Origin: Octopus vulgaris
Taxonomy: Eukaryota
Assembly: GCA_951406725.2 (NCBI GenBank)
Contig: OX597815.1
Coordinates: 66,960,001-67,024,000 of the forward strand
Reading direction: 5' to 3'
DNA: 64,000 nt
This document shows, piece after piece, positions 6,001 through 36,782 of the stretch. The first letter of the stretch is position 1. The number at the start of each line of letters is the position of its first letter. Made by a program: the position numbers.

Positions 6001-9000
6001 TGTCAACTAAAGTGAAATGTTATAAAAGGAATGTTAACAAAAATAAATAAACAGATAAAGATTTAAAATTAAAAAAAGAAAACCTTTTCAAATTCTTCAG
6101 CATCAACATTACCATCACCGTTTAAATCAAACATTTGGAAAGCAATTTCAAAATTTCGTTGAGGTGCTGAAAAGATATTAGAAATTTTTGATTCAGGATG
6201 TGTGTGTGTGGGTATAAAATATTAAATTATTAACTAAAGGATTGCAAATTCATATCCCTCTATATGATATTTTGGAATTATTTTTCTCACTCAAAATATA
6301 CAACATACACTGACCAACAAGCTACAACTTTTCCTAGTTTCTTCTATGCCACTATAACAGTTTATGTAGCTGTATACCACTCTAGCTAACAAGGGGATAA
6401 AAGAATCATTAATGAAATTTCATGAGCAACATTTTAACACAGCTGGGCTTATTAAAGTAATTCATATTATTGGAAATTTTGATTTGGCAGTGTTTTCATG
6501 ATAACACACTTCAATAGTCTAACACAACCAGTACATTAGACGAGTATTTGTTGTAATGTTAACATTACAGTTGTTATTTGTTAGAGATGAAATGTTTTAA
6601 CTCTGCTTTATCAAAGACACGTATTGAGTGGAAATTATTATGAGAGAAACTGTATTAGTCAGGATAAGTAAAGTTACTGAGTCAAAATAGACAAAGGAGT
6701 GAGTACAGTGGGCAACAAATATAAAACATAGTCAGCAATTATATATGTACAGGAGTTAAGTAGAATTTCTGGTTGTAGCTATTGAGCATATGTTAAAGGA
6801 TGAGATCAAAGCTGATTTTATTACAGATCAAGGCAAATATAAGCAAATAATAGATTATCAAACTTATCTCATGTATAGACACATGAGGTTTGTCTTGAAA
6901 GTGGGAATAACTTTTCCATTAATAGAAATAGGTTGTTCAACTTGCACATACTGGTAGAGTAACTTTTCTTCCTGTTCGTCTTCATTGCATGCTAATAATG
7001 TGAGCATACACAATACGCTGTCAAGTTTTTGATGAAGAAGGGGTACAGGTTTGGCATATGTAGAAGGCAATGTGCACAGTTTGAAGACAATCCATGCATT
7101 GGAAGACCATCAACTGTGATTGCCAGCAAATGGACAAACTGATTGGTGTGGCAGATGAGTCACAATCTGTTTACTGGACTCTGGTCACAATAGAAGACTC
7201 TGGGTATCAAAAGGTATATGCAAACTGAGTAACTTGGCAGATGGCATTCGATTTGAAGAAGAGAAAGGTGGGAGTCTGCTCTGAACTACTAGGATTGTCT
7301 GAAGCCAATAAGGATAGTTTTTTAAAATTTATTTTCCTGACCTGGTGACAATGAAAAAGGGCTATATCTTCATGATCAAGAAATAAAGGCTCAGTCTAGG
7401 GAATGGTATTCCATCTTTTCTCCAAGGCTGATGTTCAGGAGATAGCAACCAGCTCAGAAAATCATGGAGACTGTTTGTTGGAATGACAAGGGCATTGTTC
7501 TCTTTTATTTTTGTGGAATATAGCTGTACTGTGAGCAGTAAGTGATACATCAAGATAAACTAAGAGAGGTGATTCAGAGTAAGAGACAGAACAAGTATCT
7601 GAAAACAATCCCCATTTGTCAGGAAAATGTGCGAGAGCACACAACTTTGGTCACAGAGAAGGCAATGGGCAGGTATATAGCATGTACAGCCTGGATCTGG
7701 TGTCCTCCAACTTCCACCTGTTTGACCCATTGAAAGATAGTCTTTAGGGACAATGATTTTATGACAGAAAAAAAAAAAAATAAAATAAAGTAAAGGCTCA
7801 AACAAACAACCAGACTATGAATGAGAAAAAAAATGATTATGATATAAAATATGAAGTGAAGGAAATGGATCAAGTTACTTGATAGTACAGTCAGCAACAG
7901 GATGTAATCAGAGAAGGAGATTAGTCCACTTTGTCCAAGTTTATAAAATATGCTGTGTTCACCAAGTTCTAGTTCCGGATAATCCTCATGCTATAATAAT
8001 AATAATAAAAACAAAATAATTGAATTTAATTCAGCTCCACTAATACAACATTTACAAAAACATAAACCATCATCACTTAATAAATAAAACATTTATAACA
8101 ACATTTTTTTTCCTCATTAATTAATTAATTTATTTGACTTCCTCTCATTCAGATTTAAATTATTGATCCAGTAACATTATTGAATTATAAAATAGGATTT
8201 ATAAAGGGATTATAGTAAAGTGATTACACAAGTCTTGATAGAAAGTTCATATGTTTAAAAATATTGAGGTAAAGAAGATTTGAAGAACAGCTTTCAGTTT
8301 ACAGAAGTCAATTTTTAATTCAAACTAAATATCGTAAATGAAAATTAAGTGTTAATTTTTAAAAGATATGACAGCAACAATGCTCTAAAGATTTAAGAAT
8401 AACAAGAAATATATTATAATAAATAATAATGGTTTCAATTTTTGGCACATGGCCAGTAATTTTAAGGGTAAGGGTCAGTTGTTTACACTAAGCTTAGTAC
8501 TCAACTAGCATTTAATTTATGACCTTGGTGGGATTTGAACTTAGAATGTTAAGCGCCAGAAGAAAAGCTACTAAGCATTTTGTCCAATGTGCTAACAATT
8601 CTGACAGCTCGCTGTCTTTAATGATTTCAAATTATAGTACAAAGCCAACAATTTTAGGAGGATGGGGATTAGTCGATTTCATTGACCCCAGTGTTCAACT
8701 GGTACTTATTTTATCAACCCAGAAAGGATGAAAGGCAAAGTTGACCTTGGTGAAATTTGAACTGAACATATAAATTGTGCCAGCTTGCTACTTTAATAAT
8801 AATAATACACAATTAGAACAGCATGGTATGTAAAAAAAAAAAAACACAGATTGACTTTATATCTTTTTCGGGTTCAAAATAAGACAATAATAATGAAAAT
8901 TGAAAAATACATGGAAATTCAAAAATTCACAACTGGTCTGTTCTGCATTCTTTCCTAGATATATTGTTGAAATAATATTCGATAAACAAAGTTAATCTGT

Positions 9001-34108: not shown

Positions 34109-36782
34109 AAGGAATTCATCTGAGTCTTCCAGTGGAACAAGATTAGGCAAAAGAAAACAACAGTATATTCTCTTCAAGAGGATCCTGAAAGTGCTACACT
34201 CACAAGGATTTTAATCACTACAAAAAACACCTTAAACAACAAAAAGTTGATAAGAGAAACAACAACACAGCTATATAATATATTGATTTACGTTTAATTT
34301 GTAAATAAATTATTTTGTAGATTATTAAAATGAACAGAAAAACTGTTTAAAAAAAATTAAAATTTAATCCTAAGGTATCCATTTCATAAATATACATTAA
34401 AACTATTTCCATATTTCAGTTAATTAACAGTTAATTACTGTTAAACACAATTTGTTTTCACTATTGATAATGGATCAATACTGATTGTAATAGAGAGATC
34501 CTCACTAGAATTTAATATAAAAGTAAAATTTTAATGAATTTTTAATGAAATACATGTGTAAATTACACAGCTTCTTTCACCAAATAAACTTCACAGGTAG
34601 TATATTACAAATGTATATCAAATGGGTGTGTGTATATAGTGTAAATTAATTCATATTTAACTCAGAAGAGTATATAAACATAAGTGCAACAGGAATATAA
34701 AATAAGTAATTTCATATAAATATAGTGCTGTGTGAAGTATAAAGCTCACATGTGTATTATAGAGACAAACATAACTGAGAAATACCAAGCTTTTACTTAA
34801 TGACAAAGTACCACATTCAAAGCTGTGGGTTTGATAGGTTGATGTTAATGCATGAGAATAGACCAAAAGTTATTTTCATATGATTTTAAGTTGAGAAAGC
34901 AACAACAATAACGAAAAAATTAACCAAACAATAACTAAAAATGATATAACATTTAACATCAAATGAAATAAAGATTATTTTAACTGAGCTGGAATCAAAA
35001 AGCACAATGTAAATTTAAAACAAGAAGAATGACAAAACCTTACATTATTAAAACAAAAAGATACAAATCCATTAATTTACCTGGGTAAATGAATATCATG
35101 TCAACAAAGACATAACTTCAATACATACATATACACACTTATAAGATACATTACACAATATAAATCAATATTTATGTCAATAAAAGAAAATTATCTCTAT
35201 AAAATTGTTGATATAGTGTAAATTTTGATTGATAATATTATCAATGTTACAACTAAACTATTATCCATTTAATATATATTAACAGCTTCCTCAGTTTATT
35301 CCAGAGAGACACCTGCTCTACCCAACCTCTACTTATCCACTTAACACTTATTCATCATTATACTCACCTTCTTACCCAGACTCCAACACTCACTCTACTA
35401 TACAATCTCACACTCCTGGATCTACTGCTCCAATTCATTTCTACTAACCTTGTACCTCATCCTTATCTATTTTATCTCTTTTCCATTCCACAATGATCAC
35501 CCCCTCCACCCTCTCTTCTGAAATGTGTTTAGCTACGTGATTCCTTAACAGCAAGAAACCTGTTCTGCTCCCTTCTCTCATTCTTTAACCACCCCAATAC
35601 TTCATCTCTTAGCATAAAGCCAACTCTCATGGTGTTTATAGTTTTGCAGGCTGCATGGCAACCTTGCTAGTGCTAGTGACATGCAAAACAGCACCGTCAT
35701 CAAAAGGGCATCCAGCCATAGAAACCATGCCAAAGTAAACATTGGAGCATGAAGTGGTCCTTGAACCTGCTGGATCATGTCAAACAGTTCAACCCATGCC
35801 AGTATGGAACATGGATGTTAAATAATGAGATATTAAATATATGACAGACGGAAACATAAAAATCTATGCAATACACATAACACAGATCAAGTGTATGCTA
35901 CACTTTTATGCTTTGAGCAAGTACATGTGTACAATGAATGTAGCTTTGGTTTACATTGCTGTCTTGACTGGTTTTCTTCTCTTTTATCCCTTTCCAATGA
36001 ATTGTGTAACCGAGTACAGTATACAATATACTCATTATTATATTATTAATGTAGAAAAACAAACCCCTTCAAAATAATGCATTACTTATCTACAACATAA
36101 AAAATATTAAACAGACATATGACATACACTGCTTTTTTTCCAGCAGCATATATGTATCTTAGTGTTTATATACATACACACACACATCCGATCATCCTTT
36201 CTCTCCACCCACTATTGTTTGTGTCTATACATGGGACTTTAAGTATTGCCTGATGGTTTAGTCAGGGATTGAATAAATTGTCTCATGAAACTTGAAGTTT
36301 CAGTCAAGCACAAATTCTATAAAGAATTTGATGCTACTTTCAGGAGGGAATCCCTGCCACCAGTAAATACTCCCTTGTTATTCTTAAACTTACTTTAAAA
36401 TAATAACATCAATTTAATGTATATACATACATACAAATACATAACTACATGTATATATGTGTGTATTTTCAAGAAAGAAATGCTTACTTAAGAAACAAAC
36501 AAAATAGAAAAAACCCAAAAACATAGTAAAATGGAACAAAAAGATGACATGATACAAATTTCAAGACAACCCAGATAAATAAAATCAAATTGATAAAAGA
36601 ACATAAACGCAACTTACCTTAGGATCAAATTTACGAAACTGATCTAAACCAAGACCTGAAAAAAAATGAAGTTATTATGAGCTACAAGGACAAGTCTTTG
36701 AAACCTAATAAAAAAAGGAAGCAAAAAAGTAAATCTAAATAAAACTACATGTACTCATATGTATACACATATATCTTCCTTT

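What the first reader, a model, noticed from the sequence alone, without database searches (positions are those of the whole stretch)
7991..36617. Array of frame-preserving microexon candidates in the MICU1 intron that hosts the vertebrate MICU1.1 microexon
Seen: the intron between FDPK and HEDYPEL is 28.6 kb, while the other coding introns are under 3 kb, and it is phase 0. It holds four AG..GT cassettes that are multiples of 3 and stop-free in phase 0: 39 nt (32611-32649), 12 nt (32056-32067), 18 nt (19814-19831) and 36 nt (12257-12292). Known: mammals insert a 12-nt EFWQ microexon at the equivalent junction (after FDGK) to make muscle MICU1.1, which changes Ca2+ gating of the uniporter. Inference: this lineage may tune the same loop combinatorially with sequence-unrelated microexons, a convergent or expanded system. 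A 28-kb AT-rich intron will also yield some chance cassettes.
Basis: partly seen in the sequence, partly recalled or inferred. Interest (0 to 1): 0.85.

Follow-up and report, generated by a model that had tools for sequence, protein, structure and literature searches.

The report
Octopus MICU1 alternative microexon cluster

Summary
The window carries an Octopus (vulgaris-type) MICU1 gene on the minus strand.

- **Chance level:** bare AG..GT, in-frame, stop-free cassettes are at chance (856 observed, 856±32 in shuffles). With strong splice sites, 4 are seen against 0.84 expected.
- **Real exons:** public isoforms (11 of the 12 numbered O. sinensis forms seen, plus O. vulgaris, O. bimaculoides, Argonauta) show three.
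  - 32056-32067, KDSL. A TAGAAG tandem acceptor also gives the 9-nt form DSL.
  - 19814-19831, NPRTSK.
- 11508-11540, DVSTELVEGLE.
- **Unsupported:** the 39-nt and 36-nt candidates appear in none of the 16 named octopod proteins seen. They encode mostly hydrophobic peptides and match the chance expectation.
- **Combinations:** the three cassettes are annotated in every combination (3×2×2 = 12).
- **Position:** the junction matches vertebrate exons 5'/5'' (pig and frog DFWQ and TE).
- **Other lineages:** the same junction carries lineage-specific cassettes in scallops (8 isoforms), oysters, limpets, amphioxus, a spider and Limulus.

This is a new member of a known kind. It is annotated by pipelines and I found no paper describing it. 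Any effect on Ca2+ gating is inferred, not shown.

The parts
125..39895 (-). MICU1 (calcium uptake protein 1, mitochondrial) gene, from the start codon to the last exon inside the window. Constitutive exons: 39895-39465, 39246-39108, 38067-37902, 36655-36618, 7990-7879, 6166-6084, 4910-4716, 3620-3471, 2864-2756, 214-125. The C-terminal exons lie beyond the window start.
   Evidence: Each exon was translated on its own and is an exact substring of O. vulgaris CAI9717532.1 (P0021). Boundaries were read, and from tblastn. O. sinensis X1 (P0029) matches human MICU1 chain 4nsc_A at E=2e-141.
7991..36617 (-). Intron 4: 28,627 nt, phase 0, GTAAGT...TATAG. It hosts the alternative microexons, which cut it into pieces of 4,550, 12,224, 8,273 and 3,517 nt.
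   Evidence: The piece lengths are computed from the exon coordinates.
32056..32067 (-). Alternative microexon m12, 12 nt, KDSL. A TAGAAG tandem acceptor also gives a 9-nt form (32056-32064, DSL). Donor GTGAGT, 17 of 20 pyrimidines upstream, TGC at -9, and a roughly 90-nt CT-rich tract downstream.
   Evidence: Sequence. KDSL occurs in P0020, P0022, P0029 and P0031. DSL occurs in P0001, P0024, P0027 and P0030. KDSL is also found in unnamed decapodiform-like transcripts P0041 and P0042.
19814..19831 (-). Alternative microexon m18, 18 nt, NPRTSK. Acceptor ...CTTAATCAG, donor GTAAGT.
   Evidence: NPRTSK occurs in O. sinensis/O. vulgaris P0018 and in P0023, P0024, P0029, P0030 and P0031. It also occurs in Argonauta hians P0002. 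O. bimaculoides P0028 has NPRTPK.
11508..11540 (-). Acceptor ...GTGTTCAG (13 of 20 pyrimidines), weak donor GTATTG.
   Evidence: It matches O. vulgaris P0021 exactly. O. sinensis has DMSTELVEGLE and O. bimaculoides has DVSAELVEGLE.
11485..11490 (-). TGCATG (RBFOX-type hexamer) starting 18 nt downstream of the m33 donor.
   Evidence: There are 13 TGCATG in the 28,627-nt intron, so one within 50 nt of a given exon is expected about 2% of the time. This is a motif match only, and the link to RBFOX is inferred.
32611..32649 (-). It has strong splice-site consensus but no isoform support, and is most likely a chance cassette.
   Evidence: It is absent from 16 of 16 named octopod MICU1 proteins seen. 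The peptide is mostly hydrophobic. The surrounding open frame has no Pfam match.
12257..12292 (-). It has strong splice-site consensus but no isoform support, and is most likely a chance cassette.
   Evidence: It is absent from 16 of 16 named octopod MICU1 proteins seen. The strict filter passes 0.84 cassettes by chance, and 62 of 300 shuffles give 2 or more.

Best explanation
Intron 4 of an Octopus MICU1 gene contains three genuine, in-frame, alternatively included microexons. In order of transcription they are m12 (KDSL, or DSL through a TAGAAG tandem acceptor), m18 (NPRTSK) and m33 (DVSTELVEGLE). Each can be included or skipped independently, and they always keep genomic order. This gives up to 3x2x2 = 12 proteins that differ by 0-21 residues in one loop. 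The loop follows ...FRKFDPK, which lies between the N-terminal domain and the first EF-hand lobe. This is the position where vertebrates insert exon 5' (E/DFWQ) and exon 5'' (TE).

Shown here: the exons, their splice sites, their presence in database isoforms of four octopod species, and the equivalence of the junction.

Inferred:
- The cassettes change the length and charge of a flexible loop (0 or -1, +2 and -4 for the three cassettes).
- They thereby shift how MICU1 gates the mitochondrial Ca2+ uniporter, as reported for the vertebrate exon 5'.
- Inclusion is tissue-regulated (nerve or muscle).

For: **Gene identity.** Exon-by-exon translations are exact substrings of O. vulgaris MICU1. P0029 matches human MICU1 structures at E=2e-141.

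**Isoforms.** Cluster 1 has 20 members, of which 15 were listed. Among them are 11 of the 12 numbered O. sinensis isoforms. Their lengths (554, 557, 558, 560, 563, 564, 568, 569, 571, 574 and 575 aa) and junction sequences are exactly the combinations of -/DSL/KDSL, -/NPRTSK and -/DMSTELVEGLE. The twelfth pattern, m33 alone, is seen in O. vulgaris P0021 and O. bimaculoides P0025.

**Mapping.** Each inserted peptide maps to one cassette in the intron, flanked by AG and GT, in the same order as in the protein.

**Conservation.** NPRTSK occurs in Argonauta. NPRTPK and DVSAELVEGLE occur in O. bimaculoides. Unnamed transcript-like contigs, 89-93% identical in the query exons, carry KDSL, an NP... 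insert and an acidic ELS..IEE..E insert at the same junction.

**Statistics.** 4 strict cassettes are observed against 0.84 expected.

**Junction equivalence.** See, and the PMC8909990 passages.

**Loop character.** In an AlphaFold2 model of P0029, residues 257-287 have pLDDT below 50 and no secondary structure. PMC8909990 states that crystal structures did not resolve the loop that holds the extra exons.

**Functional precedent.** MICU1.1 binds Ca2+ with higher affinity and activates MCU at lower Ca2+ (PMC8909990 passages). Two zebrafish micu1 microexons depend on srrm3 (PMC13281805 passages).
Against: - No reads or cDNA were examined. Isoform support rests on database models (RefSeq 'X' isoforms are pipeline predictions) and on unnamed assembled contigs, so some of the 12 combinations could be extrapolations.
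- 5 of the 20 members of the octopod cluster were not listed, so I cannot say what they contain.
- The AlphaFold2 model is poor overall (mean pLDDT 52.5, pTM 0.49), so the low confidence in the loop is weak evidence.
- The cassette peptides have no similarity to EFWQ, so their effect could differ in sign or be absent.
- The regulatory motifs (TGC at -9 of m12, TGCATG at +18 of m33) are single matches with no test of conservation.
- A palindrome upstream of m33 folds no better than shuffles (z = +0.58).
- No other cephalopod genome was available, so conservation of the exons' flanks, and absence of the 39-nt and 36-nt cassettes in relatives, was not tested.
Confidence: 0.82

Rival explanations
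1. One reading: all four listed cassettes (39, 12, 18 and 36 nt) are used microexons that tune the loop combinatorially.
For: All four have strong consensus splice sites and are the only in-frame, stop-free cassettes that pass the strict filter. Annotation pipelines are known to miss microexons (abstract listings of PMC8831610 and PMC7821500).
Against: The 39-nt and 36-nt peptides are absent from 16 of 16 named octopod MICU1 proteins seen, and from the 15 unnamed cephalopod-like proteins that span the junction. They are mostly hydrophobic (FMLSCFIVSCLQM, AYDVSAISNIWL), whereas the three supported cassettes and the flanking loop are polar or charged. About 0.84 strict cassettes are expected by chance, and 62 of 300 shuffles give 2 or more.
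Confidence: 0.08
2. Everything in the intron is a chance splice-site pair, and only the direct E4-E5 junction is biologically used.
For: Bare AG..GT in-frame cassettes are exactly at chance level: 856 against 856±32.
Against: Three cassettes encode peptides present in independent annotations of O. sinensis, O. vulgaris, O. bimaculoides and Argonauta hians. Related inserts occur in unnamed transcript-like contigs. The strict count exceeds 299 of 300 shuffles.
Confidence: 0.03
3. The three microexons are real, but the full set of 12 is an artefact of how the annotation pipeline combines events. In vivo only a few combinations exist, or inclusion is low-level splicing noise without a distinct function.
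For: The isoform names are pipeline predictions ('isoform X1-X12'). The O. vulgaris records seen include only the single-cassette forms and the skipped form (P0018-P0021). No expression data were available.
Against: The three cassettes total at most 63 nt, so single short reads can span all of them; this is an inference. Equivalent full combinatorial sets are annotated in two scallops (8 of 8 combinations each) and in frogs (4 of 4). The four human combinations were cloned and sequenced (PMC8909990 passage). Conservation of KDSL and of an acidic cassette in decapodiform-like transcripts argues against noise.
Confidence: 0.3

Closest known systems
Vertebrate MICU1 exon 5' (EFWQ/DFWQ, 12 nt) and exon 5'' (2 residues, 6 nt): isoforms MICU1, MICU1.1, MICU1.2, MICU1.3
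   Same: It is the same gene and the same junction, after FD(G/P)K and between the exon 5 and exon 6 equivalents. The microexons are in-frame and used combinatorially. They insert into a loop that is not resolved in crystal structures (PMC8909990 passages; pig and frog isoforms).
   Different: Octopus has three cassettes plus a tandem acceptor (up to 12 forms against 4). Lengths are 9/12, 18 and 33 nt, and the peptides are unrelated (KDSL, NPRTSK, DVSTELVEGLE). The tissue pattern, the regulators and the effect on Ca2+ gating are untested.
Annotated MICU1 cassette sets of other invertebrates (database isoforms only): scallops Mizuhopecten and Pecten, oysters, Dreissena, Patella, Branchiostoma, Uloborus, Limulus
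   Same: Cassettes sit at the same junction. The two scallops have three cassettes (7, 14 and 3 residues) in all 8 combinations. Amphioxus has three cassettes (12, 9 and 5 residues) in 6 patterns among the 15 of 30 cluster members listed.
   Different: Cassette sequences are lineage-specific. The only hint of shared origin within molluscs is a KD(S/D) start (octopus KDSL, Patella KDSIPIW, scallop KDDVHSL), which is too short to test.
SRRM3/4 (eMIC)-dependent neural microexons and RBFOX2-dependent muscle microexons
   Same: The size class is the same (51 nt or less, in frame). The two zebrafish micu1 microexons are srrm3-dependent, and mammalian MICU1.1 is RBFOX2-dependent. Octopus m12 has TGC 9 nt upstream of its acceptor and m33 has TGCATG 18 nt downstream of its donor.
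   Different: There is no evidence here on regulators or tissues. The motif matches are single occurrences.
NAGNAG tandem acceptors
   Same: The acceptor of m12 reads TAGAAG. Isoforms that differ by exactly one residue (KDSL against DSL) are both annotated.
   Different: Here the tandem acceptor sits on a microexon, which adds a third state to a cassette.

Membership tests
MICU1 (calcium uptake protein 1, mitochondrial) orthologue | Full-length sequence similarity to experimentally solved MICU1 | tested here: met
   P0029 (O. sinensis X1, whose exons equal the window's apart from one residue in m33) matches 4nsc_A at E=2e-141. MICU3 scores 5e-38 and MICU2 1e-32.
MICU1 (calcium uptake protein 1, mitochondrial) orthologue | EF-hand domains | tested here: met
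   The Pfam domains precomputed for P0001 are PF13405, PF13499, PF13833, PF13202, PF23564 and PF00036. EF-hand-like sequence [14 protein letters not shown] is in exon 6166-6084.
MICU1 (calcium uptake protein 1, mitochondrial) orthologue | N-terminal hydrophobic segment and a polybasic stretch before the conserved core | tested here: met
   Exon 1 ends in ...ATVVYLLTLGSILVVTLIY and exon 2 holds KKKKRKKVGFRERK. That these features are typical of MICU1 is recalled, not taken from a call.
MICU1 (calcium uptake protein 1, mitochondrial) orthologue | Gatekeeping of the MCU channel | not testable with these tools
   Needs Ca2+ uptake assays.
MICU1 exon 5'/5''-type alternative microexons (MICU1.1 class) | Position: inserted between the exons that encode ...FD(G/P)K and the segment before ..SIFY | tested here: met
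   Octopus reads FDPK|cassettes|HEDYPEL..HSIFY. Pig reads FDGK|DFWQ|TE|KIAQ..GSIFY, and frogs likewise. In the HMMER alignment to human MICU1 the insert falls in a gap at this point.
MICU1 exon 5'/5''-type alternative microexons (MICU1.1 class) | In-frame cassette of 51 nt or less with AG/GT borders | tested here: met
   m12/m9, m18 and m33.
MICU1 exon 5'/5''-type alternative microexons (MICU1.1 class) | Both inclusion and skipping seen in transcripts | tested here: inconclusive
   Both states are present in database isoforms of four octopod species and in unnamed transcript-like contigs. No reads or cDNA were examined here.
MICU1 exon 5'/5''-type alternative microexons (MICU1.1 class) | Sequence homology of the cassette to E/DFWQ | tested here: not met
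   KDSL, NPRTSK and DVSTELVEGLE share nothing with DFWQ or TE. The octopus cassettes are therefore positional analogues, not demonstrable orthologues of exon 5'.
MICU1 exon 5'/5''-type alternative microexons (MICU1.1 class) | Muscle or brain-specific inclusion; raised Ca2+ affinity and a lower activation threshold | not testable with these tools
   Known for mouse and human from PMC8909990 passages. There are no octopus data.
eMIC (SRRM3/4)-dependent neural microexons | UGC-containing element close upstream of the 3' splice site; neural-specific inclusion | tested here: inconclusive
   TGC lies at -9 of m12 only. m18 and m33 have none within 100 nt upstream. That UGC is the relevant element is recalled. 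Tissue specificity is untestable here.
NAGNAG tandem acceptor | NAGNAG at the acceptor, and isoforms that differ by exactly 3 nt | tested here: met
   TTTAGAAG|GAT. KDSL and DSL isoform pairs: X10/X11, X7/X8, X4/X5, X1/X2.

The most novel reading that the evidence does not exclude
The linker after ...FD(P/G)(K/Q) of MICU1 is an ancient alternative-splicing hot spot shared across bilaterians. Each lineage has recruited its own two or three in-frame cassettes and uses them combinatorially: octopus up to 12 forms, scallops 8, amphioxus at least 6, vertebrates 4, and chelicerates 2. In octopus the three cassettes carry charges of 0 or -1, +2 and -4. They would act as a graded dial that sets the Ca2+ threshold of the mitochondrial uniporter tissue by tissue, for example in nerve against fast muscle. 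This would make the function of a loop that structural work on the human protein could not resolve testable by comparing lineages.
Probability: 0.4. Interest if true: 0.6.

Novelty: new member of a known kind. Interest (0 to 1): 0.4.

Why it matters
MICU1 sets the Ca2+ threshold of the mitochondrial uniporter. In mammals a 4-residue microexon at this loop changes Ca2+ affinity and gating in muscle and brain, yet the loop is unresolved structurally and its mechanism is unknown (PMC8909990 passages).

The same junction carries three unrelated cassettes in octopods, and lineage-specific cassettes in other molluscs, amphioxus and chelicerates. This suggests that what is under selection is the ability to vary the length and charge of the loop, not a particular peptide. 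It also offers natural variants for testing how the loop acts.

For genome scanning the case is a useful calibration. Splice-site consensus plus frame found two real microexons. It also admitted two probable false ones and missed a real exon with weak sites.

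Tried and rejected
- **Too-short query.** I used the longer single exons 4910-4716 and 38067-37903 instead.
- **Repeat origin of the cassettes.** A first self-BLAST of each cassette ±300 nt against the window, without low-complexity filtering, gave mainly microsatellite hits in the part I could see, and its output was cut. With filtering, only one hit overlapped any cassette ±50 nt, a palindrome at 11562-11595 upstream of m33. 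In-window repeat origin is therefore rejected for all five.
- **The palindrome.** As an RNA hairpin between branch region and acceptor it folds at -8.4 kcal/mol against -9.8±2.5 for shuffles (z = +0.58; 149 of 200 shuffles fold at least as well). It is not significant.
- **Nested genes.** The intron has 18 stop-to-stop frames of 90 aa or more. I scanned 3 of these 18 against Pfam (23907-24347-, 22252-22524+, 32494-32871-) and none matched. No nested gene was found.
- **Recursive splice sites.** There are 0 zero-length AG|GTRAG sites with a strict acceptor in the intron.
- **Looser sequence filters.** A strict acceptor with any GT gives 37 in-frame stop-free cassettes. Any AG with GTRAG gives 20. 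Sequence alone cannot recover m33 without many false positives.
- **Structure model.** The AlphaFold2 model of P0029 is low-confidence overall. I did not run a fold search on it.
- **Literature.** MICU1+cephalopod gave 0 papers. MICU1+octopus gave 3, judged from the listing to be one review and two meeting-abstract collections. Microexon+octopus gave 4 papers (3 listed); the one preprint I opened has no 'micu' in its main text. MICU1+microexon gave 8 papers, and the 7 listed appear by title and abstract to concern vertebrates or humans. MICU1+eMIC gave 2, both zebrafish. For MICU1+alternative splicing+Drosophila+isoforms, none of the 12 listed of 31 looks from its title or abstract start to describe invertebrate MICU1 cassettes.
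- **Not checked.** No eukaryotic genome collection was available, so orthologous introns were not aligned.

Full report
**What is in the window.** The minus strand carries a MICU1 gene. I translated each exon on its own, and each translation is an exact substring of Octopus vulgaris MICU1 CAI9717532.1 (P0021). The exons are 39895-39465 (start codon), 39246-39108, 38067-37902, 36655-36618, 7990-7879, 6166-6084, 4910-4716, 3620-3471, 2864-2756 and 214-125. The last coding exons lie beyond the window start. The window reads V in the 33-nt exon, where O. sinensis has M, so it is O. vulgaris-type.

One 65-residue exon went into and one 55-residue exon into. The full-length proteins used later are public database proteins returned by those searches. 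O. sinensis isoform X1 (P0029) matches solved human MICU1 (4nsc_A) at E=2e-141, far ahead of MICU3 and MICU2.

**Checking the observation.**
- The intron between ...FRKFDPK and HEDYPEL... is 7991-36617. It is 28,627 nt long, runs GTAAGT...TATAG and is phase 0.
- The other nine coding introns in the window are 218-2,541 nt.
- The stated criterion has no discriminating power. AG..GT, a multiple of 3 and stop-free in phase 0 selects 856 cassettes of 3-51 nt in the intron. That compares with 856±32 in 300 dinucleotide-preserving shuffles and 879 on the antisense strand.
- I then applied a strict filter: YAG, at least 14 of 20 upstream pyrimidines, a GTRAG donor and length of 6 nt or more.
- The strict filter expects 0.84±0.90. 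One of 300 shuffles reaches 4 and 62 of 300 reach 2. The antisense strand gives 0, and window 40000-64000 gives 1 and 0 on its two strands.
- There is therefore a real excess, of a size that fits about two true exons plus one or two chance hits.

**What the databases show.** The single-exon search (17 proteins at E≤0.001 among 32 candidates) returned O. sinensis MICU1 isoform X5 at 100% identity. Its 90% cluster has 20 members, of which 15 were listed. I read the junction in every listed protein. The inserts between FRKFDPK and HEDYPEL were:
- none
- DSL
- KDSL
- NPRTSK
- DSL or KDSL followed by NPRTSK
- D(M/V)S(T/A)ELVEGLE alone
- D(M/V)S(T/A)ELVEGLE preceded by DSL, by KDSL, by NPRTSK, or by DSL or KDSL plus NPRTSK

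For O. sinensis, 11 of the 12 numbered isoforms were listed. Their lengths (554 to 575 aa) are exactly the sums 554 + {0, 3, 4} + {0, 6} + {0, 11}. The twelfth pattern (the 11-residue insert alone) is present in O. vulgaris and O. bimaculoides.

The three inserted peptides map to the intron as follows:

|---|---|---|---|---|
| m12 | 32056-32067 | 12 nt | KDSL | listed |
| m18 | 19814-19831 | 18 nt | NPRTSK | listed |
| m33 | 11508-11540 | 33 nt | DVSTELVEGLE | missed |

The acceptor of m12 reads TTTAGAAG|G. This is a NAGNAG-type tandem acceptor, and it explains the DSL forms as a 9-nt exon, 32056-32064. m33 has acceptor ...GTGTTCAG and donor GTATTG. The genomic order on the minus strand matches the order in the protein.

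The 39-nt (FMLSCFIVSCLQM) and 36-nt (AYDVSAISNIWL) peptides occur in 0 of the 16 named octopod proteins seen. They also occur in 0 of the 15 unnamed cephalopod-like proteins that span the junction. Five members of the octopod cluster were not listed, so they remain unseen.

**Conservation within cephalopods.** Argonauta hians isoform X3 carries NPRTSK. O. bimaculoides carries NPRTPK and DVSAELVEGLE. Unnamed assembled contigs of 1.8-3.2 kb encode full-length MICU1 of 574-594 aa, so I infer they derive from cDNA. They are 89-93% identical to the octopus query exons. At the same junction they show N, NPNNRNR, NKDSL plus an acidic ELS(S/Q)VIEE..E segment, or that acidic segment after N alone. KDSL is thus identical in a second cephalopod lineage, and an acidic cassette recurs. 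I did not try to find out where these unnamed records came from.

**The two unsupported candidates.**
- Neither overlaps an in-window repeat.
- The open frame around the 39-nt one has no Pfam match.
- Their peptides are mostly hydrophobic. The supported cassettes and the neighbouring constant sequence (HEDYPELELGEH) are polar or acidic.
- Two extra strict cassettes are within the chance expectation.

I rate them as probable chance splice-site pairs, not proven so. The real m33 fails the strict filter on both sides. Filters loose enough to admit it pass 37 cassettes (strict acceptor with any GT), while any AG with GTRAG passes 20. Sequence alone cannot settle the matter.

**Comparison with what is known.** I read passages of PMC8909990, not the whole text. 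They state the following:
- Mouse and human MICU1.1 carry a micro-exon, exon 5', that encodes EFWQ after residue 181.
- Humans also have exon 5'' (two residues), which gives four cloned isoforms (MICU1, 1.1, 1.2, 1.3).
- MICU1.1 binds Ca2+ about ten times better and activates MCU at lower Ca2+.
- RBFOX2 drives the splicing.
- Crystal structures did not resolve the loop that holds the extra exons.

Passages of PMC13281805 report two zebrafish micu1 microexons that are skipped in srrm3 eMIC mutants.

Database isoforms confirm that the junction is equivalent. Pig and frogs read (F/Y)DGK | DFWQ | TE | KI(A/S)QEREKFADE.SIF, in all four combinations.

The same junction carries annotated cassettes in many other animals:

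| Animal | Cassettes at the junction |
|---|---|
| Patella | KDSIPIW; DKASDVQLLEVLQ |
| Crassostrea, Saccostrea, Ostrea | 5, 8 and 15-residue cassettes |
| Dreissena | cassettes annotated |
| Mizuhopecten and Pecten (scallops) | 7, 14 and 3 residues, in all 8 combinations |
| Branchiostoma | 12, 9 and 5 residues, in 6 patterns among the 15 of 30 cluster members listed |
| Uloborus (spider) | 18 residues |
| Limulus | 17 residues |

They are database models, not experiments.

**How it most likely works.** Shown: three optional exons add 0-21 residues to one loop. Their charges, read from the peptides, are about 0 (KDSL) or -1 (DSL), +2 (NPRTSK) and -4 (DVSTELVEGLE).

An AlphaFold2 model of isoform X1 puts residues 257-287 in coil with pLDDT below 50. 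The model is poor overall (mean pLDDT 52.5), so this is weak support.

Inferred by analogy with MICU1.1: changes in the length and charge of this linker between the N-terminal domain and the first EF-hand lobe shift Ca2+ affinity or the coupling of MICU1 to its partners. That would change the Ca2+ threshold of the uniporter, with tissue-specific inclusion.

Weak regulatory hints are a TGC at -9 of m12, a roughly 90-nt CT-rich tract just downstream of m12, and a TGCATG 18 nt downstream of the weak donor of m33. There are 13 TGCATG in the intron. A palindrome upstream of m33 is no more stable than shuffles.

**Novelty.** The exons are already in public annotation of three Octopus species. The kind of feature, combinatorial microexons at this MICU1 junction, is published for humans.

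I found no paper on MICU1 splicing in cephalopods or any invertebrate. Most papers were seen only as search listings. Four were seen as passages: PMC8909990, PMC13281805, PMC7055370 and bioRxiv 10.64898/2026.09.05.749416. Supplementary tables were closed and may list these exons. Vecellio Reane et al. 2016 was not seen; it is known to me only through the passages that cite it.

I file the finding as a new member of a known kind. The wider pattern, a hot spot across bilaterians with lineage-specific cassettes, is the more interesting lead.

**Verdict.** Two of the four cassettes are real, two are probably chance, and one real exon plus a tandem acceptor were missed. Interest is moderate (0.4).

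Noticed in passing
window 60560-60859 (-) and 44451-45232 (-): Transposase-like open frames upstream of MICU1. DDE_3 (PF13358) matches at E=1.7e-6 (28.4 bits, cut-off 28.6) and at E=6.7e-5 (23.2 bits), both just below the curated cut-off. They look like decayed Tc1/mariner-type elements; that label is recalled, not tested.
   Followed up: partly
window 23907-24347 (-), inside intron 4: A 146-aa open frame (...RRLCWYGHVARMDEDS...GRGRPRKIWDEVVKHDL...) sits in the GC-richest part of the intron (GC 0.41 at 22-24 kb). From memory it resembles the C-terminal tail of non-LTR retrotransposon ORF2 proteins. Pfam gave no match.
   Followed up: partly
window 50573-50902 (-): Two nearly identical 47-residue open frames lie 189 nt apart (...FYLNPKSSYI.IFPHEANYAIRLTIEIALILFIGSFFFNLIVI), which indicates a tandem duplication of about 189 bp. 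Seen only in the ORF list.
   Followed up: no
window 17758-17760 (-): A 3-nt 'cassette' (GTA) sits between a strict acceptor (...TGCTATCAG) and GTGAGC. It is the fifth in-frame hit of the strict filter and is in no isoform seen.
   Followed up: no
window about 31950-32055 (-), just downstream of m12: A roughly 90-nt CT-rich tract (...CCCTCTTCTTTCTTTCTCTCTCTGTTTCTCTCTTTCTATCTCTGTCTCTTTCTCT...) lies close downstream of the 12-nt microexon's donor. It could be a pyrimidine-tract-binding site or just a microsatellite.
   Followed up: no
window 58383-58541 (-) and 59798-59974 (-): Open frames such as VIEGAAGVSLGAFMTNASRFAGQKSVIVACGANISMTKLKDII look from memory like the C-terminal part of a PLP-dependent serine/threonine dehydratase-type enzyme. 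They could be exons of a neighbouring gene upstream of MICU1. Pfam gave no match on these short pieces.
   Followed up: partly
unnamed cephalopod-like proteins P0037, P0038, P0039, P0041-P0043 (not in the window): At the same junction these transcripts show a single extra N, alone or in front of the other inserts (FDPK-N-HDEYPEL; N-KDSL-...; N-ELS...). This suggests a 3-nt microexon or an alternative donor in that lineage. P0003 starts with a pyrimidine-tract-like translation directly before HDEYPEL, and I read it as a retained-intron fragment.
   Followed up: no
database isoforms of Mizuhopecten yessoensis and Pecten maximus (P0123, P0200-P0213): Both scallops have three cassettes at the MICU1 junction in all 8 combinations: KDDVHSL; GKLFNKNLERLGYR or TKQFNKNMEKLGYP; GSK. 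This mirrors the octopus layout with different sequences.
   Followed up: partly
window-wide, e.g. 11205-11264, 13043-13066, 17112-17151, 26355-26444, 28008-28053, 30526-30555: Many (TA)n/(CA)n-type microsatellites dominated the unfiltered self-comparison.
   Followed up: no
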